DNA of 63,775 bases, counting the filler, from Kipferlia bialata (taxonomy: Eukaryota): the NCBI GenBank assembly GCA_003568945.1. It is 4 parts of 4 records of this genome, joined end to end, with 100 filler letters (N's around TTAATTAATTAA, not from the genome) between each part and the next. Parts side by side here need not be neighbours in the genome. Positions count along the whole stretch, not along the records: positions 24,155 to 48,135 come from BDIP01000242.1; 3 more parts are not named here. One strand, given 5' to 3'. The notes beneath the pieces were generated by a model. That model worked only from the letters and a program-made list of their open reading frames with translations. It was not told the origin of the DNA and searched no databases. Positions within the stretch are counted from its first letter, which is position 1. Every line of letters starts with the position of its first letter. The position numbers were made by a program, and so were the translations under genes. Positions 1-62,140 of this stretch are shown in pieces.

Positions 1-2967
1 CCCTGCCCAAGCCTCTCTTCTTCATGCACCACACACACAAGGAGAGCCACAAGCCTGGGTCTCGCTCCACACTCAACTACTTTGAGTCTCAATGGCTGGT
101 CAACCTGATACCCGTGCTCTGTGGCAATGGGTACAAGCCGTCAGACATCACCATCATTGCACTCTACAAGGGCCAGATGTTCCAGGTTAGTCACTATACT
201 TCTATGCACCTGATACTAATGCAAATTCTTGCCGCTCATATCAGATCATGAAGGACATCGAAGCTCTCAGGCAGCGTATTGTTGATCATGAGAGCACCCA
301 CCCCAGTCTGCAAGTGCTGCGGTGTCCTGTGGAGTCCCTCAAGGAGGTGCAGGTGGGAGAGTCCTTTGAATCATGATGTGACCGTTCATCAGCACATTCT
401 CATTCCGATTGATTATGATTAGACACTACCTCCTACCTATTGCTGATATCCAGATTGTGAATCTGGACGACTTCCAGGGCCAGGAGAACAAGGTCATTCT
501 GGTCTCTCTTACTCGGTCTGACCGTCTTGGCTTTGTGAGGGAGAAGAACCGTGTACTTGTCACACTGTCAAGGGCCAAGGAGGTGATGATTGTGTGTGGA
601 CACGAGTTCTTCACCCAGACTGAGAACAAGGTGTGGCATTACGTCTCCCAACACTTCTTGGCCTCTGGGGACCCTTTGACCGGCATGGGTCCTGGCCTCC
701 CCATAGGCTGCACCAAGCACCTCAACACTCTCAACTACAGTGACCCCAAGCAGCTCAGTAGCCTCACCGGCCTTGCCCTGGGTGGGTGTACGGAGCAGTG
801 TGCCACTCGACTGGTGTGTGGCCACATCTGCCCCCTCACGTGCCACGGCCCTGACCACTCCCCAGAGTCTGGGTTCAAGTGCCAGCACCGGTGTGCGGGG
901 GAGTGTGATAGAGGGCACCGGTGTCGGGCGCCTTGTCACAAGTGCCAGGCTGCCAAGGGATGTGTGCCCTGTACAGTAGCCGTTGACACTGTCTTCCCCT
1001 GCGGTCATACCTCATCAGTGCCCTGCCACAAGGTGGATGGCTGCCCCCCTGCCCCCACCCATGTGGCAGGACCATGCAGTGTGGACACCTCTGCCGTCTA
1101 CCCTGCGGCCATGCCGCAGAGGAGGGCTCGCAGTGCAGTGGCATATGCGAGGAGAGGATCATCGTGACCTGCCCAACCTGTGAGCGTAAGTACCGCCAGA
1201 AGTGCTCTGTCATTTCTCAGCTTGGTCTAGCAGGTGCCTGTCCATACCCGTGTCCAGAGGACCTGCCCTGCAAGCACAGCTGCCCGGGCAGGTGTGGGGT
1301 GTGTACCAGGAAGGGACATGCGAAGTGCAAGGCCACACACCACAGGTTCCTCGGCTGCGGTGAGTGATATCTGAATGCAGCTGTTAATCCCATATAACTT
1401 CAAGTATGTATTGTGTTTTGCACTCACCCTTTAGGTCACTTGTGTGGGGATACTTGTGGGCACTCTGGAGCCTGTGTGTGCAAGCACCCATGCGACATAT
1501 CTACCTGCAGCCATGGGAAGTGCCCTGCACCCTGCTCCCACGAGTGCCCAAGGTGCCAGGCCCCATGCTCCATACGGTGCAGGCACAAGAAGTGCACTAG
1601 GCTGTGCTGCGAGGAGTGTGACAGGCTACCATGTGACAAACCGTGTAGGAGGCGTCTCCGCTGTGGGTGTGTGTGCCGGGGCCTCTGTGGGGAGGCCTGT
1701 CCCCCCTGTCCCACCCATGACAAGGAGGCATACAAGGGCATGCAGAGTGTCATGGATATGTGCCCCCTTCTGGAGGTGCTAGAGGAGGACCCAGAGGCGC
1801 GTGTGTACTACATGCCCACCTGCAAGCACTCCTTCCTCGTGGATGAGCTGGATCAGACCATAAGGGTGAGGGAGAAGGACATTCACGACAACGGGGAGCT
1901 GACTAATGTGGCTCTACTGTGTCCTCACGGAGACTGTCGTGAGAGGCTGACCCTGGCCAACGCCCCAAGGTACCAGAGGGTGGTGAGAGAGGTAGCAAAG
2001 AGACTGAACAAGGCCAAGAGGCTGGCCAGAGAGAGAGAGAGAGAGCTCCAGGCTGCACAGCAAGGTGAACTGACAAGTGAGGAGTTTGCAGAGGTGAAGC
2101 GTGCCATGATTGGAGATGTGATGGGCGCAGTTGAGGGACACTGGTTCGAACACGACTGTGGCTGTACATACTTCATAGCAGACTGTGGGGGTGCCACGGT
2201 GCAGTCAGTTTGCCCAAGTTGTGGGGGAACACTAGGTAGGCATTTCAGCCAACAGTGTATTCTATCATATGATATAGTGTGCTTGAGTTCGGGTATTCTC
2301 ACTTCTAGGAGGTCGCGATCACACTCTGACCGAGGGCAACAAGCAGTCCCACCTAGACGCTGGCTCTCACATGGCATGGCGGGCTATGGAGACAGGACCC
2401 AAGATCAAAGACACGCTGACAGAGAGGGAGAAGGCAGAGAGACTGGCCAAGCTGAGGGGAACTGGTGAGGAGAGGCGTCGTAGAGAGATTGAGGCCATGA
2501 CTGCCCATGTGGCTGAGGCCCAGAGACATCGCCTACAGGAGGCCATCCGTGCCGCAGACAGGGGGGAGGGGATGTCCCGCGAGGACTTCTGTGTGATCAA
2601 TGGCCAGCCTGTGCCTGACAACATAGGAATGCAGCCTGGTGGCGGTCAGGGTGGAGGTGGTGGACAATCCGCCCCCAAGCAGAAGGGAAAGGGCAGAGGC
2701 AGGGGTAGGGGTAAGGGTAAGGGGAGGAGAGGATCAGGGGGTAAGGGTGCGTCTCGGGAGGCAGGAACAAGGGCCCTAGGAGACACTCAGAGAGACCAAG
2801 TGGAAGGTGAGAGAAGGAGGAGAGGCAGAGGAAGGAGAGGTAGTAGTAGAGGAGGGAGGGGACCCCGGCCACCTCAGGATGGTGGAAGGGGTGGTGGGAG
2901 AGAGACGGGGAGAGGGAGAGGGAGAGGGAGACTGGACCACAGACGGAGAGAGGAAAGGAGGGAGTGA
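1..2967 (+). CDS. ZNFX1: ZNFX1-like SF1 helicase with NF-X1 zinc fingers, RING-like and RZ-finger domains, and RG-rich tail (5' partial)
   Basis: Upf1-like C-terminal motifs (IIALYKGQ, NLDDFQGQENKVILVSLTRS..GF, NRVLVTLSRAK), many CGHxCxxxCH repeats and an RZ finger GHWFEHDCGCTYFIADCGG..CPSCGGTLGGRDH. GT-AG introns at 186-244, 353-453, 1360-1434 and 2236-2308. One frameshift in the C-run at 1044-1049. Confidence 0.9.
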
Positions 2968-16543: not shown

Positions 16544-19500
16544 ATAATGAATATATATATATCAATATATTAATGAATATATATATATATATTGACACAG
16601 AACGCAGGGGGGCGGCAGCTCTATCTAGTAAGTACGTAAGAGAGGAAGGCAGTAAGAAGTGAGTATACAATATGTATATATCCCCCACAGAACACAGGAG
16701 GGCGGCAACTCTATTGTGTTAGAGTATAAAAAACGCTATAGACAGAATATGGAATAGTATATATGCACAATACCTATAATAACACGCGTATTTAAACAAT
16801 ATTAGAATACAAGAAACAATTGTCACAATTAATCACAATAAATCCCTTGGTTGGCATGTCTAGTATATATATTACTATAGAGCATAGAATATCTATTATA
16901 GAGCATAGAATATCTATTTTACCTTGAAGTACATCCTGTGCCCCTATACACTTAAATGATACTGAATTACCACAAATTGAATGATTCCCAAAATCTGATA
17001 TATACCTTTATATGTACATCTGGCATCCTGTGCCACTGTCAATAGAATCAATCATCAAATGATCAATCATCATATGATCAATCCTACCTTGATTGGTACA
17101 TCTGGCATCCTGTGCCACTGTCCGTCAGGTGTGAGTGTCATGTGCATACAGCCAGACAGGCCACCCAGGACATGCAGGGTGTCTGGGGTTTAGATAAACT
17201 ATGTTGGATCTATACAAATTTATCCATATATAGATATAAATATACACATGCATACCGTGTGTGACTGTGGATGCCAGTCTCAGTGGCACAATTTCAGCAA
17301 TATATATATATATAAATATGTATTCTCTATGTATATATGAATATATATATACTATACATACATATCCATANNNNNNNNNNNNNNNNNNNNNNNNNNNNNN
17401 NNNNNNNNNNNNNNNNNNNNNNNNNNNNNNNNNNNNNNNNNNNNNNNNNNNNNNNNNNNNNNNNNNNNNNNNNNNNNNNNNNNNNNNNNNNNNNNNNNNN
17501 NNNNNNNNNNNNNNNNNNNNNNNNNNNNNNNNNNNNNNNNNNNNNNNNNNNNNNNNNNNNNNNNNNNNNNNNNNNNNNNNNNNNNNNNNNNNNNNNNNNN
17601 NNNNNNNNNNNNNNNNNNNNNNNNNNNNNNNNNNNNNNNNNNNNNNNNNNNNNNNNNNNNNNNNNNNNNNNNNNNNNNNNNNNNNNNNNNNNNNNNNNNN
17701 NNNNNNNNNNNNNNNNNNNNNNNNNNNNNNNNNNNNNNNNNNNNNNNNNNNNNNNNNNNNNNNNNNNNNNNNNNNNNNNNNNNNNNNNNNNNNNNNNNNN
17801 NNNNNNNNNNNNNNNNNNNNNNNNNNNNNNNNNNNNNNNNNNNNNNNNNNNNNNNNNNNNNNNNNNNNNNNNNNNNNNNNNNNNNNNNNNNNNNNNNNNN
17901 NNNNNNNNNNNNNNNNNNNNNNNNNNNNNNNNNNNNNNNNNNNNNNNNNNNNNNNNNNNNNNNNNNNNNNNNNNNNNNNNNNNNNNNNNNNNNNNNNNNN
18001 NNNNNNNNNNNNNNNNNNNNNNNNNNNNNNNNNNNNNNNNNNNNNNNNNNNNNNNNNNNNNNNNNNNNNNNNNNNNNNNNNNNNNNNNNNNNNNNNNNNN
18101 NNNNNNNNNNNNNNNNNNNNNNNNNNNNNNNNNNNNNNNNNNNNNNNNNNNNNNNNNNNNNNNNNNNNNNNNNNNNNNNNNNNNNNNNNNNNNNNNNNNN
18201 NNNNNNNNNNNNNNNNNNNNNNNNNNNNNNNNNNNNNNNNNNNNNNNNNNNNNNNNNNNNNNNNNNNNNNNNNNNNNNNNNNNNNNNNNNNNNNNNNNNN
18301 NNNNNNNNNNNNNNNNNNNNNNNNNNNNNNNNNNNNNNNNNNNNAATATATATATACTATACATACATATCCATACCTCCATGTGTAACTGTGGATGCCA
18401 GTGTCATTGGCACAGGCACATCCATCAGTCTAGTCCACTGGCCACTCTTGGGTGTGTATACCCAGGAGTCAAAGAGAGGCCTTCCTGAACCCTTATCAGT
18501 AGGTACTGTCTCTCCCCCTATCACCAGCAACTTGTCACCGAAACACGCTAGAAGAGGCTTCACTCTGTCACAGGGCCACATCATCTGACCATCCTTGACC
18601 TCTGTTGACCCCTCTTGAGCAGAGTTGGGGAGCATCACACTACCCCACTGCTCGGTGTATATGTCCAGGGTGATGAGCTCAAAATGCTCTCTCCTGGTTA
18701 TGTCTGTGATAGGGCTCCCATCATAGTTAGTCTTGGGAGCACCCACGCAGTATAGGGTGTTGCCTACAATGGCAGAGGAGGGTAGGGACATGACCTCCTG
18801 GTGGGGGTGGTCGATGACACTGACCTAGGGTCAGTAATATGTATATATATGTATATATGTATATATGATACATAGTGCATAATAGTGTTTAGTAATGATA
18901 TGTATATTTGTATAAGAGTATATATATAGAAACACGTATAGTAACATATTACTAAATGTATAGTAATGTAAAACACATTGTATACAAGGATGTGTCCTGA
19001 CCTTGTATGGATCCTCCCCACCCTCCGCTGCAATGTCTGATATCCGGTACACAGCACCCTCCTGCTGTTGGACTGCCAGAAGCTCGACAGGCCCAGACTG
19101 GGGTGAGTGTGAATGGAGTAATTGAACATAATAGAACCATTGCGACATGCACTGTCACATATCAGTGTGAATAGAATTACATGCAAAACAAAGAAATGTA
19201 TGCAGATGGATACGGGTTGTGTGAACATAATAATTGCATTACACACTATGCTTGTGTATAGTGTGTCTAGAGTAGGTACAATAATATGCTATAATGATCG
19301 TGCATGATGAACATGAGCATATTCTTTCTGTATGTGAATACTTGTCAACATAGTGTATATGGTATATGCATGTATATACCACACACATGCCTGATGATGG
19401 GCGAAGGAGATGTCGGGACCGCTGACATAGTATCTGTGTATCATAGTATATGTAAATATATATATAGTAATATCATAATATATATATATCATAATTTATA

Positions 19501-24054: not shown

Positions 24055-24154
24055 NNNNNNNNNNNNNNNNNNNNNNNNNNNNNNNNNNNNNNNNNNNNTT
24101 AATTAATTAANNNNNNNNNNNNNNNNNNNNNNNNNNNNNNNNNNNNNNNNNNNN
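24055..24154. other. Artificial scaffold linker N44-TTAATTAATTAA-N44
   Basis: Six-frame stop linker flanked by Ns; the same 100-nt element occurs three times. Confidence 0.97.
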
Positions 24155-29010: not shown

Positions 29011-31904
29011 TCACTGCCACCCATACACCTCCAGCCTCATGCTGATGTGGGATGACCAGGTCAGGGCACTGACACGCACCCTGTCAGCCACAACAGGCTC
29101 AGACAGAGTGTGGAGCACTATACCGGCACCCTCGTTGCCCACAAAGGACTCTGTCCCACTCAACACAGACAACCACCCGTCACTAGCGCTGTCGAAGTAC
29201 TCGATCTTGTACGCGGTCACGTGCTGGTTCCCACTCATGGTACCAGCCGTGGCAACTGCACAGACTACAGTCGGAGAGCTGTACACTATAGTGCACCCCT
29301 GACCCACCTCGTTAACACTGGCTGCCCAGTGAGGGAGCATGTCGGCGAAGTGGCTACGCAGTGTGTAGCTGTGGCCATAGTCATAGATGGGGGCAATGCT
29401 GGGTATGAACACACTCGTGAACCGTACGTCTGCAATGTCCTTCTCGACTGTCTCCCATACAGTCACACCGGTGTAGTATGCAGTCACTGCTGCCAATGCC
29501 TCATCTGCCGTGTCATGGGTGCTTCTGAGGGTGAACTAATAGTATAGGAATTACATAACTAGTAGATAATGTCTATACTCCTGAAGGAGGACCAAGTAAT
29601 AGGAGAGAGGGGAGCAGTGTGTATACATGCCTGATGTAGTTGGGTGCCAGCACCGACACTCCGTCCATCAACACCGTGTAGGCATCTGAGTAGGTAACAT
29701 TGGGGTCTGCGTACACTTCCAACACCCCCAGGTCACTCTGTACTGTATCCATATCAGCATCCAGGGTGGATATCTGTGTATCGTGTGTGTTGACAGTGAG
29801 GGAGAGAGAGGAGACAGAGGAGGAGAGGGTGGCGGTGGTGGTGTCTAGTGTAGAGACAGTGCCCTCTAGGGTAGACAGGTCAGTGCCTAGAGTAGAAACA
29901 CTTCCCTCTAGGGTAGTGATGTCAGTGCCTAGAGTAGAGACACTACCCTCTAGAGTAGACACGTCAGTGCCTAGGGTAGAGACAGTACCCTCTAGAGTAG
30001 TGATGTCAGTGCCTAGGNNNNNNNNNNNNNNNNNNNNNNNNNNNNNNNNNNNNNNNNNNNNNNNNNNNNNNNNNNNNNNNNNNNNNNNNNNNNNNNNNNN
30101 NNNNNNNNNNNNNNNNNNNNNNNNNNNNNNNNNNNNNNNNNNNNNNNNNNNNNNNNNNNNNNNNNNNNNNNNNNNNNNNNNNNNNNNNNNNNNNNNNNNN
30201 NNNNNNNNNNNNNNNNNNNNNNNNNNNNNNNNNNNNNNNNNNNNNNNNNNNNNNNNNNNNNNNNNNNNNNNNNNNNNNNNNNNNNNNNNNNNNNNNNNNN
30301 NNNNNNNNNNNNNNNNNNNNNNNNNNNNNNNNNNNNNNNNNNNNNNNNNNNNNNNNNNNNNNNNNNNNNNNNNNNNNNNNNNNNNNNNNNNNNNNNNNNN
30401 NNNNNNNNNNNNNNNNNNNNNNNNNNNNNNNNNNNNNNNNNNNNNNNNNNNNNNNNNNNNNNNNNNNNNNNNNNNNNNNNNNNNNNNNNNNNNNNNNNNN
30501 NNNNNNNNNNNNNNNNNNNNNNNNNNNNNNNNNNNNNNNNNNNNNNNNNNNNNNNNNNNNNNNNNNNNNNNNNNNNNNNNNNNNNNNNNNNNNNNNNNNN
30601 NNNNNNNNNNNNNNNNNNNNNNNNNNNNNNNNNNNNNNNNNNNNNNNNNNNNNNNNNNNNNNNNNNNNNNNNNNNNNNNNNNNNNNNNNNNNNNNNNNNN
30701 NNNNNNNNNNNNNNNNNNNNNNNNNNNNNNNNNNNNNNNNNNNNNNNNNNNNNNNNNNNNNNNNNNNNNNNNNNNNNNNNNNNNNNNNNNNNNNNNNNNN
30801 NNNNNNNNNNNNNNNNNNNNNNNNNNNNNNNNNNNNNNNNNNNNNNNNNNNNNNNNNNNNNNNNNNNNNNNNNNNNNNNNNNNNNNNNNNNNNNNNNNNN
30901 NNNNNNNNNNNNNNNNNNNNNNNNNNNNNNNNNNNNNNNNNNNNNNNNNNNNNNNNNNNNNNNNNNNNNNNNNNNNNNNNNNNNNNNNNNNNNNNNNNNN
31001 NNNCAGTACCCTCTAGAGTAGTGATGTCAGTGCCTAGGGTGGAGACAGTACCCTCTAGGGTAGTGATGTCAGTGCCTAGGGTAGAGAGGGTAGAGGTGTG
31101 TACTGCTACAGTGTTGGATATACTGGATATGTCAGAGGACAGCATATCTGTGCTTGTGTCTAGGGCAGAGACATCACTAGACATAGAGGCCAGTGAGGAG
31201 GTGTGACCAGCCACGGTTGCAGTCAACCCACTGACATCACTCTGTAGTAATGATACATCACTCTGTAGACCTGACACATTGGTCTGGACAGTGGAGAGAG
31301 AGGCGGAGACAGCGCTGATGTCTCTCTCTGTAACTGCAGCATCCACCTGCAGAGTGGAGACGGAGGTAGCCATACTGTCTAATTCATCTGACATAGTGTC
31401 CACCTCACCCTCTAGGTCTCTTAATGATACAGCGTGTGAGCCCACCTCCTGTGACAGGGTGGATGTCACAGAGTACAGGTCTGAGGACATTGTACTTGTC
31501 ACACTGTCCAGACTGGCCACAGAACCAGTCATACTGTCCATCTCCCCATCAAGCACTGCCAGGGAGTCAGTGTTGGTAGCTACCTCGTCTGACAGCGAGT
31601 AGAGCCGGGTCAATAGGACATACTCATCTGTGGTCTCACGCACAGTCAGGGATATCACCAATGCGGCAAAGACAGAGCCCACAGACACACACACAGCCAC
31701 CCCAATAGCCCACAGAGACAGCCTCCGGGCCCTCTTTATAGCAGCCTCAGTGCTATTCTGGAGAGAGGCTAGGTCCGCCTTCATCTGCTGTCTATCCTCT
31801 GCATCCTCTATACACTGCAGGTCGGGGGCCTCGGGCACCTGTTCCACGCACACTGCATCCGCCACCCAGAGAGGATTGGCTGTACTGTTCGCACAGTCCT
31901 CCAT
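29011..31904 (-). CDS. Type II membrane protein: TM, heptad coiled-coil stalk, F5/8 type C (discoidin) domain
   Basis: TM LWAIGVAVCVSVGSVFAALVISLTV, then S/T/D-rich heptads and a 14-aa repeat TLGTDITTLEGTVS spanning an N gap, then C-terminal VTAYKIEY..W..FVGN..HTLSEPVVADRVRV..TWSSHISMRLEVYG. One intron at 29525-29630 (GC-AG). Confidence 0.85.
29845..31085 (-). repeat. Coding tandem repeat, 42-bp unit (two 21-bp heptad halves), unresolved across a gap
   Basis: The unit cagtaccctctagagtagtgatgtcagtgcctagggtggaga and variants occur on both sides of the Ns at 30018-31003. Confidence 0.9.
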
Positions 31905-32290
31905 TTGGTAGTATCAGACAGAGTGGGCCTATGGAAGGAAGGGAGACATAGGGAAGCGTGTAGGCGGCTGAACCCTTATGAGGGTGTGTTTTTGTAGTCC
32001 TCACTGAGGACTCCTCAGAGTCAGGTGAACAATTTGGGTAATTGTGCCCTCATGTTGGACGTTTCTCCTACTATCTGTAGAGAACTGTAACTTGATCCTA
32101 AAATGTGGTGATAATGATGTCTATGGGCCTGCATGGTGGCCATAACGAGCCCTACACGCATACCAAGAGGTCCGGAAAGGTCAATGACGTGTGCGAGATA
32201 AGTTGGATGTTTTAGCGATTTAGTGAGGTGCTACACGCTTTCTCACTTGTCATGACCTTGCCTCATACACCCCTTCTTATGACACTAAAG

Positions 32291-35762: not shown

Positions 35763-36640
35763 TCACTGTGCGCTGTGACCAGTGTTACCGAGTAGCCAGG
35801 CCGGGGACTGCTGGGCATAGCACTCGTAGCACACCCTGGGGGTCAGATGGATATACAGCAATATATATCAATATATATCAATATATATCAATATATATCA
35901 ATATATATCAATANNNNNNNNNNNNNNNNNNNNNNNNNNNNNNNNNNNNNNNNNNNNNNNNNNNNNNNNNNNNNNNNNNNNNNNNNNNNNNNNNNNNNNN
36001 NNNNNNNNNNNNNNNNNNNNNCAATACTGTATTGATTCAATATATATATATATATATACACATATGTCGACATCTAGTGCATAGCACACCCTGGGGGTCA
36101 GATGGATATATACCAATATATCAATATATACATATATATACACATATATCAATATATACATATATATACATATATATCTACATCTAGTGTATAGCACACC
36201 CTGGGGGTCAGGTGGATACATCCACAGCAAGTACCCTATTTGGTATCTATAACCCACTGAAGGTAGCCACTCACCACTGCTTCTCTAAGTGTATACATAC
36301 ATCTATAATACATGTATAGTGTGTATATAGAATATACAGCCCCCACTCACCGCTGCTTCTCCAGGAAGTTCCAAACTTAAACCAAACCATAATCTGTAGA
36401 ACTACAACGTGTAAATATATCATATAACTATCGAACACACAGTGTCTATATTATATATGTATCTCACCGCTGCTTCTCCAGGAAGTTCCTGGCCGGGCAC
36501 ATCAATGTGGGTAGAATTCATCTAAGTATATATATATATATATATATATATAATATCAAATGTGCTCACCGCTGCTTCTCCAGGAAGTTCCTGGCCGGAC
36601 ATGGCAGGGTGTGCTTGGAGCACCCTGCACACACCAACTG

Positions 36641-36671
<31 letters not shown>

Positions 36672-37077
36672 CATATACACCACATACCGCTGTCTCTCCA
36701 GGAAGTTCCTGGCCGGGCATGGTAGGGTGTGCTTGGAGCACCCTGCACACACCAGCTGGTCACAGATACGGCAGTGGTGCCGCCTCTTCAGGGTCAGGCC
36801 TGGGGTTAGTACATAATACATATATGGCATTATAAATGTAACTGGGGTTAGTACATAACACATATATACCACATAATTGTATACGTGGATAGATTAGCAC
36901 TATGTATACGGCCTCTTCAGGGTCAGGCCTGGGGTGAGGAGGGATAGTATATGTGTGTATGTAGAGAGAGCCAAGTATACAGTATATACACCCATACCTA
37001 GTGACGACAGCGGCTGTCTGCACCTGGTGCATATCAAGTATATCAAGTATATGACACATTCATACATAGTATATGTT

Positions 37078-37108
<31 letters not shown>

Positions 37109-40100
37109 ATACATCCAATGGCATCAGTACCTAGTGACGACAGGGGCTGTCTGCACCGGGTGCATGCATCCTCGGTGCTGTCCTGGGGGGTAAGGGGTAG
37201 AGGATATATATATATATAGACAGATATCTATCCACGTATACACACATATATGGAATATTCATATATCATACACAAACAGTTACCTCCCACGTCTCTGGTC
37301 CCTGTCTGATCTTGATGCTGAACCCTGCCACAGCCCCTGCCTCACTGCCAGCCAGTAGCAGGTGCGGGTTGTGCTCAGAGACATGGACACAGGTGACGGC
37401 AGAGAGACCGGACCTACTAGAGAGGCCGAACAGCCTGGGGTGAGGTATATACATTGAGAACAATCACTCTATAACCATGTATACATATATGGGGTGAGGG
37501 CATACTATCGCCATACATAAGAATATATGTAAGTATTTAGTTAAGTTGCTGCAGACACTAGTAACACCCCTCCCCACCTTGGTGCCTGTGACTGGGCAGT
37601 ATGTGCACTGGATATCTTGAGTTGGTGCACGAGCTTGAGCCTCCTAGGCCCCACTAATGGGGACGCCTTAACTCTACCCAGTGACAGAGAGGCAAAGGAG
37701 GAGGAAGATGGGTGGGTGGGGAGGGAGGGAGCAGTGCCGGAGACAGGGCTGGTGTGGCCAGACCCGTCAGTCTCCATCTCGTCTCTCTCTCTCTCTCTCT
37801 CCTCCTCCTCTCTCTCCCTCTCCTCATCATCGTCCATGGAGTCCCCAGAGACAACGGAACCACGGTGCCTGGAGGGTGAGGGACATATCTCTACATGACA
37901 TACAGTAACAATAGTCTCTTTCTACTACACTGTCATTGGTACTCCTCTATCGGCTCTCTGCCATCCTTGACCGTCGGACACACAGAATGACATCCTTCCA
38001 ATTACACATTTACTAATATACATGTATGTATATATTCTATATCACCTGCTCTCTGCCAGCGTGACCCTCTGAAGTTGGAATCACGGATACATACTAATAT
38101 ATATATATATACATATACTATAGTGTATATACTATATATATACATTCACCATTCTATACCTGCTCTCTGCCAGCCTTGACCGTCTGAAGTTGGACGCATG
38201 GGGGGACTGGAACAGATCGGCCCTGAGGGGTGAGGATAGGATAGGAGAGGATATGATAGGGATAGGATTGGATAGGGATACAACACGAAATATGACACAG
38301 AGGTATAGGTATATATCAAGTTCACATACACATACACATATCCATACACCCACCTAGACATTGACATCTGCATGCCCCTGTCGTGTCTAGGGGTGACTGA
38401 CATATCAGTCACAGAGGACAGAGAGGGAGAGGGGGGCGCAGTGTTGACACCACTACTAGCCAGGGACAGAGAGGAGAGGGGGCGGTCTGGGGGTGGGTAT
38501 AAGTGTATACATATATATCCATCCATATATATATATATATATAATTATATACATACTCTATACCTGACTCCGGCAGGACTATGTTTGATGTTGCCCTTTC
38601 TGCATATATAGTACACTATCTATATATCTATCCACATATATCTATATACACCATATACCTGACTCCGGTAGGACTATGTTTGATGTGGCCCTTGGCCTCT
38701 GGTACTTGTGTCTGGATGATGCACTCAGGGACATGGGGACAGTCAGGATGGCCTGAGGGGGGGCCTAGAGGGTGAGAGGTATTGGATAGGTATATATATA
38801 TATAAGAGGATGTATATATGTGTATTGGTGCATGGATACAGTTAGGATGGCCTGAGAGGGGGCCTAGAGGGTGAGATACATATAGACTCGTTGTGTATAG
38901 AGGTATGTGGTAATGGTATTGATGTTAACACAGATATTATCTACCATATACCTTGCAGTCTATGTTCCACAGCAGTATATATCTATCTATCAATCTATCT
39001 ATCTCTATCTCTATATATACAATTATATACAATTATATACACATATACCTTGTAGTCTATGTTCCATAGGAGTATGGACCCATCTGCATGTCCAGTGATC
39101 AGGACCTGGGACTCCCACCACGACAGGCCTTGGGGGTGAGAGGCATATACATAGATGCATATACACAAAGATATATATAGCGACGTAGGTACCTGCCACT
39201 TCGAACGATGTGACTCTGTCCATGGCTCCCTACACCAACTAACACACTCTCTCTACATACACACACACATATATATATATATACATACACATATATATCT
39301 ACCTGCCACTTCGAACGATGTGACTCTGTCCATGGCAGCTGCCTCCACCAGCTCATGCCTCACCAGGACATCCCCAGAGAGACCATAGGCACACAGGAAG
39401 CCTGGGGTGAGGGGTGTTACATAACATGCGTTGAGAGACCGCCACACTCACCTTCTCCTGCGACGTATATGTTGCACTCGTTGCCGATGCACTTGAGGCC
39501 AACCACTGCACTGCGCCTGGGGGGTGAGATAGGTATCAATAGAATACTGTGTATATACGACGACGACACTACGTGTCATTACCTGCTGACTGTCCTGACC
39601 GGTGGGTATGCCTTGATGACCTGCATTGACCTCAGGCTGTACACACACACACTGCCATCGGAGGCACCAGTGACAAACACACCATGCCTCTCAGACACGT
39701 GGAGGCACGTGATGTAGACAACTCTTGGGGTGAGATACAAGGAGAGATATATATAGGTTGAACATGCAGACACGTGATGTACACCACCCTGGGAGTGAGG
39801 GAGGGATTGTGAATATACACTAGAGAGTTACAGTGACAGTACCACTAACATAGTGAAATGTCATCCATCTCCTATCGTGTACAAAGGGTAGTATAGTATG
39901 TACATATACATAAGCCAATACCTCCCGTCTGCGTCTGCGAGTGATACATATATAGTAAATGTAGATATATATACATAAACATATATACATATTCTGTCAG
40001 TTAGTACCTGCCGTCTGCATCTGCGAGTGGGTGTGAGTGGCCTATGGGCAAGGGGTGTGAGGCATACACACCACTGAGGTTGGACAGACTGAGCGGTGGC

Positions 40101-57112: not shown

Positions 57113-57212
57113 NNNNNNNNNNNNNNNNNNNNNNNNNNNNNNNNNNNNNNNNNNNNTTAATTAATTAANNNNNNNNNNNNNNNNNNNNNNNNNNNNNNNN
57201 NNNNNNNNNNNN
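57113..57212. other. Artificial scaffold linker
   Basis: N44-TTAATTAATTAA-N44. Confidence 0.97.
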
Positions 57213-57691: not shown

Positions 57692-60600
57692 CCAGCCCCT
57701 CAAGTACTGGGACTCCAAGTGTGGGGAGTACATCTGCCTCAAGTGCTACGGGGCAAAGGGGGACGAGGTGGATCTAAAGGTATACCTTCATCATACATAC
57801 TAGTGTTAGTGTATGCGAAGTCTCTCTAACTCTCTCTCTCTATCTCCTTTATCATACACTAGTGTATGCGAAGTCTCTCTCTATGTCTCTCTCTCTCTCT
57901 CCCTTCCCTCAGGACATCATCACTGTCAAGGATGACGCGTACCATGCCTCTGTGTGTGGCACCATAGCAGACAGAGTGAGGACGGGGGAGGAGGCAGGTA
58001 TATAATCATATGTGTAGTCATATATGGAGAGGGAGTGGTAGTTCATGACAGGGTCTTTGTGTATACATGGCTTATACATCCCCCTCACCCCAGATGCTGT
58101 GCTGGCTGCTGAGATCCACAGGCTGGAGAGGCTCAGGAGGAGGTATGTATAGACATAAATATCTGCGTCTAGTAGTGAATATGCTTATACAAAGGTATAG
58201 TCACCCACAGGCTGGAGAGGCTGAGGAGGAGGTAGACTAGTGTATACATTTATATATTAATAGTATTCATAATAGATCTGCATAGATATTTTGTATATAG
58301 CACTGTGTATACACAGGCTGGAGAGGCTCAGGAGGAAGTATACGCAATATAGTCTGTGCATATAGTAGTGTATATGCATGGTGGCTAGGTGGTATGACAG
58401 TGACAATGTTGCAGTCTATATGTGTGGCACTCTCTACAAATACTGATGCCTAGGTGGTATGACCGTGACAAGTCAGTGGAGAAGCACACGGCCAGTACAC
58501 CCGCTGATGCATTCCCAGCCATAGCAGAGGTAGGAGGATCACTCTCCTCTATATCATAATCCTGCAGAGGTAGGGGGTATCTCTCTCTTATATATCATAA
58601 CCCCAGCTCTGCAACGCTCATTCTGTCCTAGAGAGACCAGTGTACATTAGTGTTAGTATGTGGGCACTCACCTTCAGGTTCGCACTGCCCTCTCTGACCT
58701 TGACACTCTAGTGTGCGCCCTGTCCACAGCATGTGACACCAGGGGGGTGAGGGGGGTGGACATGCAGGTGGGTACATAAGTATGTTTATATGTTGGTATC
58801 AATGTCGATGTATATGTGTATGTGACACTAGGGGGGTCGACATGCAGGTGGGTATATATATGTGTATATATGTTGGTATCAATGGGTATACAAATGTGTA
58901 TGTGACACTAGGGGGGTCGACATGCAGGTGGGTATCTCTCTCTCTCCCTCTCTCTCTCTCTCTCTCCCTACCTCCAGGTCCAGACAGATGAGATTCGGGA
59001 GGAGGAGGAAGAGTCAGACCATGGTATGGGAGAGTTTGAATGGTCACATGTAGTAATATATACATATATGTACATATACTCAGAGGGGTGAAGACATCCG
59101 TGAGGAAGAGGAAGAGTCGGACCATGGTAGGGGAATGTGTATATGAAACTCTCTAGGCGGACCTGTGCATACTTAAAGAACACCGAAATGCACGCATACT
59201 TCCACTACATGTGGCCATAAGTCACATTTGGACTCACGCTTCAGACGACTCTATCCCCGAGGCCCTGTTTGACCCCCCTGAGGCAGGGGTGGTCATGTCA
59301 ACAGATATGAGGAGGTACATGTACTATATACCTCTAATCATAATACACCCACCCTTGATGTTGTTTCATCCTCAGGGGGGGTAATTATATATATTGACAG
59401 ACTGTACATATACTGTTATCTCACCTACAGGGGTGGTATTGATGGGGAACATCACGTCGTGCCCATAGCCAGGCAGCAGAGGGTAAGGCTTCCTTCTCTT
59501 CCTCTTTTGTTTCTTCATCAATCCCGAGATTATCTATCCCACATTAACAATGCATTATTATGTGATTGTGTATCTATGAATATATATGCACACTCTCACC
59601 CCAGATGCCAACTGACCACATCACACTGAATATATATCTATGTATGTATGTATACCTATGCATACTCTCACCCCAGATGCCCTCTGACCACATCCGACAG
59701 GCAGACTGGGTGCAGAAGCTCAAGTATAGGTGTGATAGAGTATATGCAGAGTATATATATATATACTCCAGAAGCTCAAGTACAGGTAAAGATGGGACTG
59801 AATACATAGTGTATACCCATGTATATATGTGTATATATACATATGTATAGTTGTGTTGGGACAGGCAGACTGGGTCCAGAAGCTCAAGTACAGGTTTGAG
59901 AGAGCTTAGTGTGTTGATATATTTGAATAGTGTCTTAATGCCGTTCAACAGTCCGATGACAATGAGGTATATCGAAAACACGTCCTCGCTAGCCCTCTCT
60001 GACTCCCCCAGGTGAGAAGGCATCGTGCACTCAACAGAAAGAGGAGACCACTTTTGATTTCGTATAATAGTATATTAGTATATTAGTATTATAGTACAAT
60101 AGTATATTATTAGCATAATTCACCTGTCAGGTGTGAGGGCATTGTGCACTCCCACCGGAAGAGGAGACCTGTGCCAGATGTGGACCCAGACACCCTCAAC
60201 AGAATGTGCACATACCTGTGGTGAGTACCGCAATGTACTATACATACTATATACTGAGTATTGAACACGTTTCACGATGTACTCTCAGCAGGACGTGCAA
60301 ATACCTGTGGTGAGTGATATATTCAGAGCAAAATTGTATGCCTAAGTGGTGAGTGGTGTGTATATAGTACTGAAGATGTACGGAGTCAATTGTCTGACGT
60401 TCCCAGGTACTATGGCGATGCTGCCGAGTGTAACACTGCACCTCCTATCAAGTTCCTCATTGAGGCAGTTGGGGTGTGGATGAAGAAAGGTACGTCACCA
60501 CATCTACACGATAGTGTCTAGTATGCATCTCTGTTTACGCCCAGAGTCCAACCGCCCCACCCTCATCTACGGTGGCCTCCTCCCCCCTCTGCTCTGTGCA

Positions 60601-62140
60601 CTATCTAGACAGAAGACACTGGCCCCACACACGTGCCTCAGGCTCTGTCAGTTTGTGGTGACGCTGGCAGGTATAGTCTATAGACTATAACCTATCGTAC
60701 CCACATATGTATCAGTTATGTACTATCATTGAACTATTCTCATCCTTTAGGTGAGGAGGAGGGCAAGAGTGAGCGGTGCGCCCTAGTAACTCTGGATGCA
60801 CTCAAACAGGCAGTGGGGAGGTACCATATGCAGTATTCTACATTATACTGTGTAGCATATACGCTGTGTGTATGATGGTGTCCTGAAAGGTCACACTAGG
60901 GGCACTCAAACAGGCAGTGGGGAGGTGGGATATATGGTGTAGATTACATTATGTGATGTATATAGTGAGCAAGAGTGTACTAGGAGCACTTCAACTGGGA
61001 CAGGAACGATAACCCAAAAATAAGCATTCCTCTGACCATGAGCCCAGTGTCATCTACAACAACAACAGCATATTCTAATATACATATGGGCATATTCAAT
61101 ATATAGTATGGACTTGCATATAGTATACATACATATAGTATCTAACCTGCAGTGTGAGGGCCAATGTCATCCACAACAACCACAACACGCACATCCACAG
61201 ATCCTATGAGAGGGCTCAGATACTCATGGGTATGGGAGACAGACTATACTCTCTATACATACTATATACAATGTAGAGTAAGTGTCATATATCTCTCATT
61301 ATAGCCTCATGCTCCTAGAGTCTTGTGTATACTCTACATGACAATACTCATGTATGTTGAAATACTAATTGACCCCCTCCCTAATGGACTAATAGATACT
61401 GTCTTACCTCAGCCCTCATGGGCCCCCTCCATGCTGAGGATGTGCCAGTGTACCAGACCCTGGCTGACCTGTGTGTGGAGCCTGCCACGGACGCAGTGTA
61501 TCACTTGGTCACAGACACTACCAACAAGCACCCACAGACAGAGGCCATAGGGGCAAGGTAGGGACACAATTACAGTGTACATATCCAAGGGTTGCTATTG
61601 GTAGAGTAGCTGTGCCTGTATATACTACTGGACTCCTCACCCTCTAGGTTGAGAGAGGGCATTGGTATCCTGATAGGAGCCGCAGACGATGGACACCAGA
61701 TAGCTGCCAGGCTGAGCGAGAAGCACAATCTAATGGAGGTATCTCTCTCTCCCTCTTACTCTCTCATGCTAGACCCCCATTCACATCAGCGTCTTCGGAA
61801 GATGGGTGCTGTTAATCCAGTCTATGAGAAGCTGCGGCAGAGGATTATAGAGGAAGGGAGAACGGGACATATGGAGCGGGAGAGAGAGCGAGAGCGAGAG
61901 AGAGAGAGAGAGATGGATAGAGGTCGAGGTCGGTCAAGACATGGTGATTGGGATAGACGTCCTGATTTTACGGAGAGGGAGAGGGAGAGGGAGAGAATTC
62001 CACAGGGAATGTACAGGGGTAGAGGGGGTGACCCCGATAGAGATGTGGGAGGGTGGAGGAGGGATCCAGGCTACAGTGACCGGAGAGATGACTACTATCG
62101 AAGCGACCATAGGGAGAATGATCGTCGAAGGGGTTGGTGA
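57692..62140 (+). CDS. B-box-like zinc finger, coiled-coil and helical region with an RD/RE/RG-rich tail (5' partial)
   Basis: QPLKYWDSKCGEYICLKC resembles the B-box LxxFCxxCxxxICxxC. About 16 exons; the last encodes RERERE..DRGRGRSRH..DRRRGW*. Confidence 0.55.

What the first reader, a model, noticed from the sequence alone, without database searches (positions are those of the whole stretch)
39696..39800. A 'non-coding' echo is almost completely synonymously recoded: 7 silent, 0 replacement changes
Seen: the true exon start (39723 downward) reads ag|A GTT GTC TAC ATC ACG TGC CTC CAC GTG. The echo (39788-39761) reads ag|G GTG GTG TAC ATC ACG TGT CTG CAT GTT. Both encode RVVYITCLHV, after which the echo runs into intron sequence. 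Neutral intronic decay should hit all codon positions. Inference: the echo has passed through purifying selection. Candidate causes: (a) unequal crossover between highly divergent alleles; (b) accordion collapse between echo and exon that periodically makes the echo coding; (c) cryptic DNA/RNA-level joining that places echo codons in mRNA; (d) mis-stacked haplotypes.
Basis: partly seen in the sequence, partly recalled or inferred. Interest (0 to 1): 0.92.

Follow-up and report, generated by a model that had tools for sequence, protein, structure and literature searches.

The report
Intron echoes of lost exon alleles
Half the introns of one gene in a free-living flagellate carry spliced-out copies of the neighbouring exon ends that differ from the exon mostly at silent positions, likely because they were copied from other working alleles of the gene, which would point to unseen recombination between very different chromosomes.

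Summary
Observation confirmed. The echo (39788-39761, minus strand) copies the acceptor and first 9 codons of exon 31 of a Kipferlia bialata BEACH/WD40/FYVE gene: 6 firm silent changes, a 7th at its edge, no replacement. Alone it is weak (p=0.02, and it was picked as an extreme), but it is one of 34 echoes in 21 of the gene's 41 introns: 77 silent vs 25 replacement differences, pN/pS 0.11, far below 'selected exon plus neutral copy' (p=2e-7). Likeness stops at the splice site. One DNA contig carries echo and exon in line; the RNA contig splices past it, so neither artefact nor main-isoform use is supported. Toy simulations reach such ratios only with exchange between alleles; an asexual accordion gives 0.56-0.71. 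Best reading (0.55): echoes are pieces of other once-coding alleles, about 25% apart at silent sites. Against: five of six other hand-built genes fit neutral decay, one prediction failed, and no second haplotype or outgroup was found. The architecture is known (amphioxus 'mirages'); this scan noted similar duplicated junctions in sea-urchin DNA. The silent-site bias was not found in print.

The parts
39761..39788 (-). Focal echo: copy of the first 27-28 nt of exon 31 (RVVYITCLHV), intronic
   Evidence: no RNA cover, contig joins across it
39789..39800 (-). Unused acceptor-like site in front of the echo
   Evidence: sequence; reading from it runs out of frame into exon 31 and stops after 51 codons
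39583..39723 (-). Exon 31 (141 nt, phase 2, WD40-like region)
   Evidence: RNA piece 39582-39723 with 0 differences
39724..40007 (-). Intron 30 (284 nt, GT..AG) holding two echoes
   Evidence: RNA joint skips 284 nt
39922..39943 (-). Echo of the last 22 nt of exon 30 with its own GT; 2 silent, 0 replacement
   Evidence: no RNA cover
40008..40186 (-). Exon 30
40386..40415 (-). Echo of the last 30 nt of exon 28; 2 silent, 0 replacement
   Evidence: RNA laid here shows 2 other letters and runs on as exon 28
47539..47807 (-). Three echoes of the exon 2 end; three different Ala codons among four copies
44486..44726 (-). Array of echoes of the exon 16 start; silent plus conservative changes (S>T, V>I)
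36351..36640 (-). Three echoes of the exon 41 end (71, 32, 22 nt), all with AAG where the exon has AGA
35763..48065 (-). Host gene as annotated on this contig: BEACH, WD40, FYVE; 42 exons, 1463 aa (P0001)
   Evidence: the 42-exon splice reproduces P0001 exactly

Best explanation
The echo is a spliced-out copy of an exon edge that likely came from another once-coding allele of the same gene, which is why it differs from today's exon mainly at silent sites. Shown: short duplications across exon-intron junctions sit in half the introns of this gene, always donor-side copies downstream and acceptor-side copies upstream; the main mRNA ignores the three tested; likeness to the exon ends at the splice site; differences are silent far beyond what a neutral copy allows. 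Inferred: a junction is first duplicated by an ordinary ~100-bp tandem event; the intron half of the unit, rich in short repeats, soon loses homology, while the exonic half is repeatedly overwritten or swapped by misaligned exchange (ectopic conversion, unequal crossover, or one-sided invasion closed by end joining) with the exon on another chromosome. Each refresh brings in sequence that was coding, and so purged of replacements, on that chromosome. The echo-exon difference then equals allelic silent divergence (about 0.25 here) plus a little neutral decay (0.03 or less). The other allele may come from a very diverse sexual population, a hybrid, or a long-diverged homolog of a diploid that was later lost by homogenisation; I cannot separate these. 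The echo needs no function.
For: pS 0.28, pN 0.031 in 34 echoes, 0 of wrong polarity; p=2e-7 against selected-exon/neutral-echo with the observed spectrum; robust to boundary rules. Echoes differ silently even from each other, with no exon branch involved: 17 silent of 27 (p=0.002); echo-private changes 12 of 21 silent (p=0.02; 0.04 and 0.06 under other rules). Private changes are shared evenly among exon (10), near echo (13), far echo (11), and there is no GC direction (26 vs 22), so the exon is not simply the fast one. Identity is 0.71-1.0 on the exon side of the donor and 0.24-0.62 from +3 on, background 0.24-0.57. Toy two-locus model: ratio 0.08-0.19 with pS near allelic diversity when conversion and allelic recombination are both frequent, 0.60-0.71 without recombination. 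Gene E (57692-61738, hand-built) leans the same way, 19 of 30, p=0.01. K. bialata is reported as probably diploid (PMC5874029, passage) and to have Spo11, four Dmc1 entries, Msh2, PolQ and XPF but no Ku70 (PMC8516963 Supplementary Data 2, six rows seen); fornicates are described as relying on homologous recombination (passages).
Against: Outside this gene the signal is weaker: 48 echoes in six hand-built, RNA-unchecked partial genes give 55 silent, 56 replacement, pN/pS 0.28, not distinguishable from the selected-exon/neutral-echo null (p=0.16; B+C+F 19 of 41, p=0.54; A2+A 17 of 40, p=0.69); the annotation-free test gives 120 of 330 vs 103.5 expected, p=0.027. My prediction that pairs with a similar intron side would be neutral failed: 24 silent vs 7 replacement in 15 pairs, against 108 vs 74 in 67 pairs with unrelated intron side. 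No second haplotype at 85% or more was seen over 1.1 kb of DNA contigs, so today's homologs, if two, are not that divergent there. The required silent diversity (0.2-0.3) is at or above the highest within-species values I recall. No exchange event or donor allele was observed. The gene was chosen because it looked extreme.
Confidence: 0.55

Rival explanations
1. Ordinary 'mirage' duplications decaying neutrally beside a selected exon; this gene is a picked outlier.
Against: p=2e-7 in this gene, 2e-5 with one echo per exon end and the focal echo removed; echo-echo and echo-private changes are also silent-rich; the intron half is near background while the exon half is 92.5% identical.
Confidence: 0.17
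2. Echo and exon exchange only in cis (collapse and re-duplication, or conversion), and replacement changes in the echo are purged because they are copied into the exon.
For: Pairs with a similar intron side are the most silent-biased (24 vs 7); direct repeats 56-430 bp apart are natural substrates.
Against: Toy asexual models give ratios 0.56-0.71 at any setting tried (3 accordion settings; 3 conversion settings); no collapsed DNA contig at two echoes whose exon lay in the stretch (contigs drop rare forms).
Confidence: 0.09
3. Echo codons enter mRNA by alternative or non-canonical joining and are under protein-level selection now.
For: Echoes keep a splice site; selection on protein would directly give silent-only change; one echo (59090-59126) has both an AG in front and a GT behind.
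Against: The RNA contig skips or mismatches all three echoes tested; 5 of 34 allow an in-register canonical splice; use of the focal acceptor frameshifts.
Confidence: 0.08
4. Echoes are stumps of whole-exon duplicates that were long used as mutually exclusive exons.
For: Two coding copies would diverge silently; some echoes show ortholog-like swaps (E>D, I>V, R>K).
Against: Random truncation should also leave upstream 3' ends and downstream 5' starts: 0 of 34 and 0 of 48; no intact pair among the 42 exons.
Confidence: 0.06
5. Assembly artefact: two haplotypes stacked in line.
For: Short-read assembly of a probably diploid genome; the DNA run laid may be the same sample.
Against: An independently built contig of that run holds echo and exon in one piece with 0 differences and no alternative path; echo and exon share no 31-mer that could join them.
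Confidence: 0.03

Closest known systems
Amphioxus 'mirages' (Adh3, globins BflGb6/BflGb9, troponin C, PGBD5); PMC3087553 and PMC3902484, passages read; the original Adh3 paper was not held
   Same: Tandem duplications across exon-intron boundaries, at both 5' and 3' edges, with unused splice signals and normal mRNA; unequal or intra-strand crossing-over proposed.
   Different: There, units are described as minisatellite-like and 81-100% identical (BflGb6) at a few loci; the word 'synonymous' does not occur in either paper. Here half the introns of a gene carry them, likeness mostly ends at the splice site, and differences follow the codon frame.
Concerted evolution of a gene and a non-functional copy by gene conversion (review PMC3924837, passages)
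   Same: A non-coding copy stays like the coding one through exchange.
   Different: The copy is 15-70 nt inside the gene's own intron; the low pN/pS needs exchange between alleles, not only in cis.
Intron gain by duplication of an AG|GT site (Rogers model; PMC3265369, search listing and abstract start only)
   Same: Starts from a short intragenic tandem duplication.
   Different: No new intron is made; only 5 of 34 echoes could splice in register and the RNA does not do so at the three tested.
Mutually exclusive tandem exons (recalled)
   Same: Tandem copies with silent-biased divergence.
   Different: Echoes have one splice site only and strict polarity.

Membership tests
Mirage repeats | Tandem duplication spanning an exon-intron boundary | tested here: met
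   34 echoes anchored at GT or AG; intron length rises by about 100 nt per echo, medians 100, 180, 284, 421
Mirage repeats | Both 5' and 3' boundaries can be duplicated | tested here: met
   21 donor-side, 13 acceptor-side
Mirage repeats | Normal splicing is kept | tested here: met
   RNA contig at three echoes; major form only
Mirage repeats | Units alike over their whole length (minisatellite-like) | tested here: not met
   Intron side near background; 15 of 82 pairs have a similar intron side
Mirage repeats | Copy number varies between haplotypes or somatically | not testable with these tools
   One sample, contigs only
Concerted evolution by ectopic conversion | Homogenised tract with a sharp edge against diverged flanks | tested here: met
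   Identity profile across the donor
Concerted evolution by ectopic conversion | Polymorphisms shared between the two positions across alleles | not testable with these tools
   No second strain or haplotype found
Mutually exclusive exons | Each copy has acceptor and donor and appears in mRNA | tested here: not met
   One splice site per echo; not in the RNA contig
Intron gain by AG|GT duplication | In-register GT in the first copy and AG in the second, used in splicing | tested here: not met
   Possible in 5 of 34, not the focal echo; unused where tested

The most novel reading that the evidence does not exclude
Kipferlia introns are a fossil sample of functional alleles: thousands of junction echoes record exons of other haplotypes about 25% apart at silent sites. 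One genome then yields population diversity and shows recombination between hyper-divergent chromosomes (sex, hybridisation, or long-diverged homologs later homogenised) in a lineage that repairs breaks without NHEJ or Rad51, and this exchange is what lengthens its introns.
Probability: 0.35. Interest if true: 0.85.

Novelty: new variant of a known kind. Interest (0 to 1): 0.63.

Why it matters
Non-coding DNA that looks protein-selected normally means a hidden exon. Here the main mRNA skips it, so another route is needed. If echoes are pieces of other alleles, a single assembly gives an estimate of silent diversity and direct evidence on the open question of recombination and sex in free-living fornicates, relatives of Giardia. 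It would also warn that low dN/dS in intronic copies is no proof of exon use, and give a testable reason for intron growth in the most intron-rich fornicate on record in PMC5874029.

Tried and rejected
No whole genome is held, so no genome-wide count. Only 2 runs, one sample, both contigs; no holder on record as RNA, X2 is a guess, though its GT..AG joints behave as spliced RNA. Only 1.1 kb of the 12-kb gene could be laid; the other 31 echoes have no read check. No relatives in metagenome contigs for two exons; no protein record for two other genes, so their exons are hand-built. An automatic gene finder matched 38 of 41 exons of its own training gene but was unreliable elsewhere and took echoes for exons; not used for counts. 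In one search one exon of gene B and one end in gene A were mis-set; dropped or fixed, echo count unchanged (48). One search took an echo at 36200 for the last exon; corrected, counts unchanged. Transition bias: rejected by spectrum-matched shuffles (mean 34 silent, max 50, observed 77). Faster exon change or GC drift: rejected. Conservative replacements (BLOSUM) are only borderline: p=0.01-0.09 in this gene, 0.02-0.53 for all genes. Dispersion of silent counts fits one rate (chi2 31.8, df 24) and does not separate hybrid from diverse population. Recombinase triplet stepping (recalled) was dropped because the period follows the codon frame and includes first-position silent changes. Literature: 10 searches listed no report of echoes in Kipferlia or of silent bias in mirages; subscription journals and the Adh3 paper were not searchable.

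Full report
Setting. The window is several contigs joined by spacers (N runs). The finding lies on the contig 24155-48135. A 200-aa exon matched one protein at 100%, P0001, named by its source as Kipferlia bialata KIPB_001651, with BEACH, WD40 and FYVE domains. A spliced mapping gave 41 exons and a wrong last one; with the last exon at 35835-35763 the 42-exon splice reproduces P0001 exactly.

Observation. The echo is as described: an acceptor-like site and 27-28 nt that copy the start of exon 31, 65 nt upstream. Six changes are firm and all silent; the seventh is at the edge. For this echo alone p is about 0.002 against neutral change and 0.02 against the fair null. That null matters: after a plain duplication the exon keeps gathering silent changes while the echo changes everywhere, so about half of all differences are silent with no selection on the echo. 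The focal echo is also the most extreme of many.

The gene as a whole. Anchoring on every intronic GT and AG gave 34 echoes in 21 of 41 introns: 21 exon-end copies, all downstream, 13 exon-start copies, all upstream, none of the opposite polarity. Differences: 77 silent on 275 sites, 25 replacement on 799 sites, pN/pS 0.11; some of the 25 come from overshoot into repeats. With one echo per exon end and the focal one removed: 50 vs 16, bootstrap 0.03-0.19. Shuffles that keep each base change give 34 silent on average (max 50 of 3000); the fair null is 0.504, p=2e-7. Four boundary rules give silent shares 0.75-0.84. Echoes also differ from one another mostly silently (17 of 27; echo-private 12 of 21, p=0.02-0.06 by rule), which removes the exon branch. 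Identity falls from 0.71-1.0 to near background right after the GT; a weak remnant is left (gapped score 7.2 vs 4.9). Each echo adds about 100 nt of intron.

Other genes. Six partial genes built by hand from splice sites and open frames, without RNA or protein records, gave 48 echoes, again none of wrong polarity, 55 silent vs 56 replacement, ratio 0.28. This beats pure neutrality (p=2e-6) but not the fair null (p=0.16); only gene E does (19 of 30, p=0.01). The annotation-free test agrees: strong in the BEACH gene, weak elsewhere. Weaker constraint, older echoes or frame errors could explain this, but I did not show any of them. So the echo architecture is window-wide, while the strong silent bias is shown for one gene and suggested for a second.

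Reads. Over 39310-40418 the DNA run X1 gives one contig, 0 differences, no joint and no second haplotype at 85% or more; it may be the source sample. The run X2 (guessed RNA) gives one 12,496-nt contig spliced 40008 to 39723, past both echoes of intron 30, and with exon-28 letters where it touches the exon-28 echo. Contigs hide rare forms. In-register canonical splicing is possible for 5 of 34 echoes; the focal acceptor leads out of frame to a stop.

Mechanism. For pN/pS well under one half, the echo's letters must have been coding for most of the time since they split from the exon's letters. As only one copy per chromosome is coding, they were likely coding on another chromosome (inference). 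Toy haploid simulations (N=200, per site) agree: conversion without allelic recombination 0.60-0.71; asexual collapse and re-duplication 0.56-0.71; conversion with frequent allelic recombination 0.08-0.19, with pS close to allelic diversity, so matching pS 0.25-0.28 needs diversity of 0.2-0.3; rare conversion at low diversity gives 0.87. I therefore commit to repeated misaligned exchange confined to the exonic half of an older junction duplicate, with donors from divergent alleles. This also accounts for the sharp edge at the splice site. The species is reported as probably diploid from k-mer peaks, with assembly size equal to the k-mer estimate (PMC5874029, passages), and has Spo11, Dmc1, Msh2, PolQ and XPF but no Ku70 (PMC8516963, passages and six supplement rows): exchange between homologs is possible, not shown. 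Against: no divergent homolog at the tested locus, no outgroup, the failed prediction on whole-unit duplicates, and the weak signal in five other genes.

Known kinds. It is built like the amphioxus mirages (PMC3087553, PMC3902484; passages; lead from e1-8148756) and meets three of their features, fails whole-unit likeness for most pairs, and could not be tested for copy-number variation. It is not a mutually exclusive exon set nor a Rogers-type new intron. Ten library searches listed nothing on echoes in Kipferlia or on silent bias in such repeats; PMC6679479 (passages) treats only its spliceosome parts. Supplements other than one file of PMC8516963 were not read; the alignments in the supplements of PMC3087553 could bear on whether mirages show the same bias.

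Verdict. Real feature, new variant of a known kind. Interest 0.63: a specialist would be surprised by protein-type selection on skipped intronic copies, and it makes diversity and recombination in a free-living fornicate testable with existing reads; held back by one well-supported gene and an unobserved donor.

Noticed in passing
24055-24154, 48136-48235, 57113-57212: N-flanked spacers join separate contigs; genes do not continue across them.
   Followed up: yes
19654 (-), echoes 19584-19549 and 19426-19391: A probable GC-AG intron whose GC donor is kept in both echoes (hand-built model).
   Followed up: partly
59080-59126 (+): Echo of exon 58978-59023 with an AG in front and a GT behind, 4 silent changes and two D/E swaps: possibly a whole alternative exon.
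   Followed up: no
about 4965-4939 (-) and about 21979-21955 (-): Older exon-start echoes below the scan threshold that read like orthologs, with conservative swaps (E>D, I>V, V>A; V>L) and silent changes.
   Followed up: no
35763-48065 (-): The RNA contig is 12,496 nt against 4.4 kb of coding sequence on this contig, so the BEACH gene likely continues on other contigs.
   Followed up: no
36200 and 36090 (-): Two short echoes of the last exon's start beside a scaffold gap; another gap (17371-18344) is also flanked by repeated sequence, so arrays may break the assembly and be undercounted.
   Followed up: partly
382-2468 (+): Intron-poor tail of a helicase-like gene (AAA_12) followed by Cys-rich zinc-finger-like repeats; ZNFX1-like by recall.
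   Followed up: no
29011-31913 (-): Long exon with 42-nt coding repeats and an F5/8 type C domain.
   Followed up: no
48451-51645 (+): Probable ELMO-domain gene (weak Pfam hit, E=0.027) with an array of echoes after exon 50738-50864 that carry replacement changes.
   Followed up: partly
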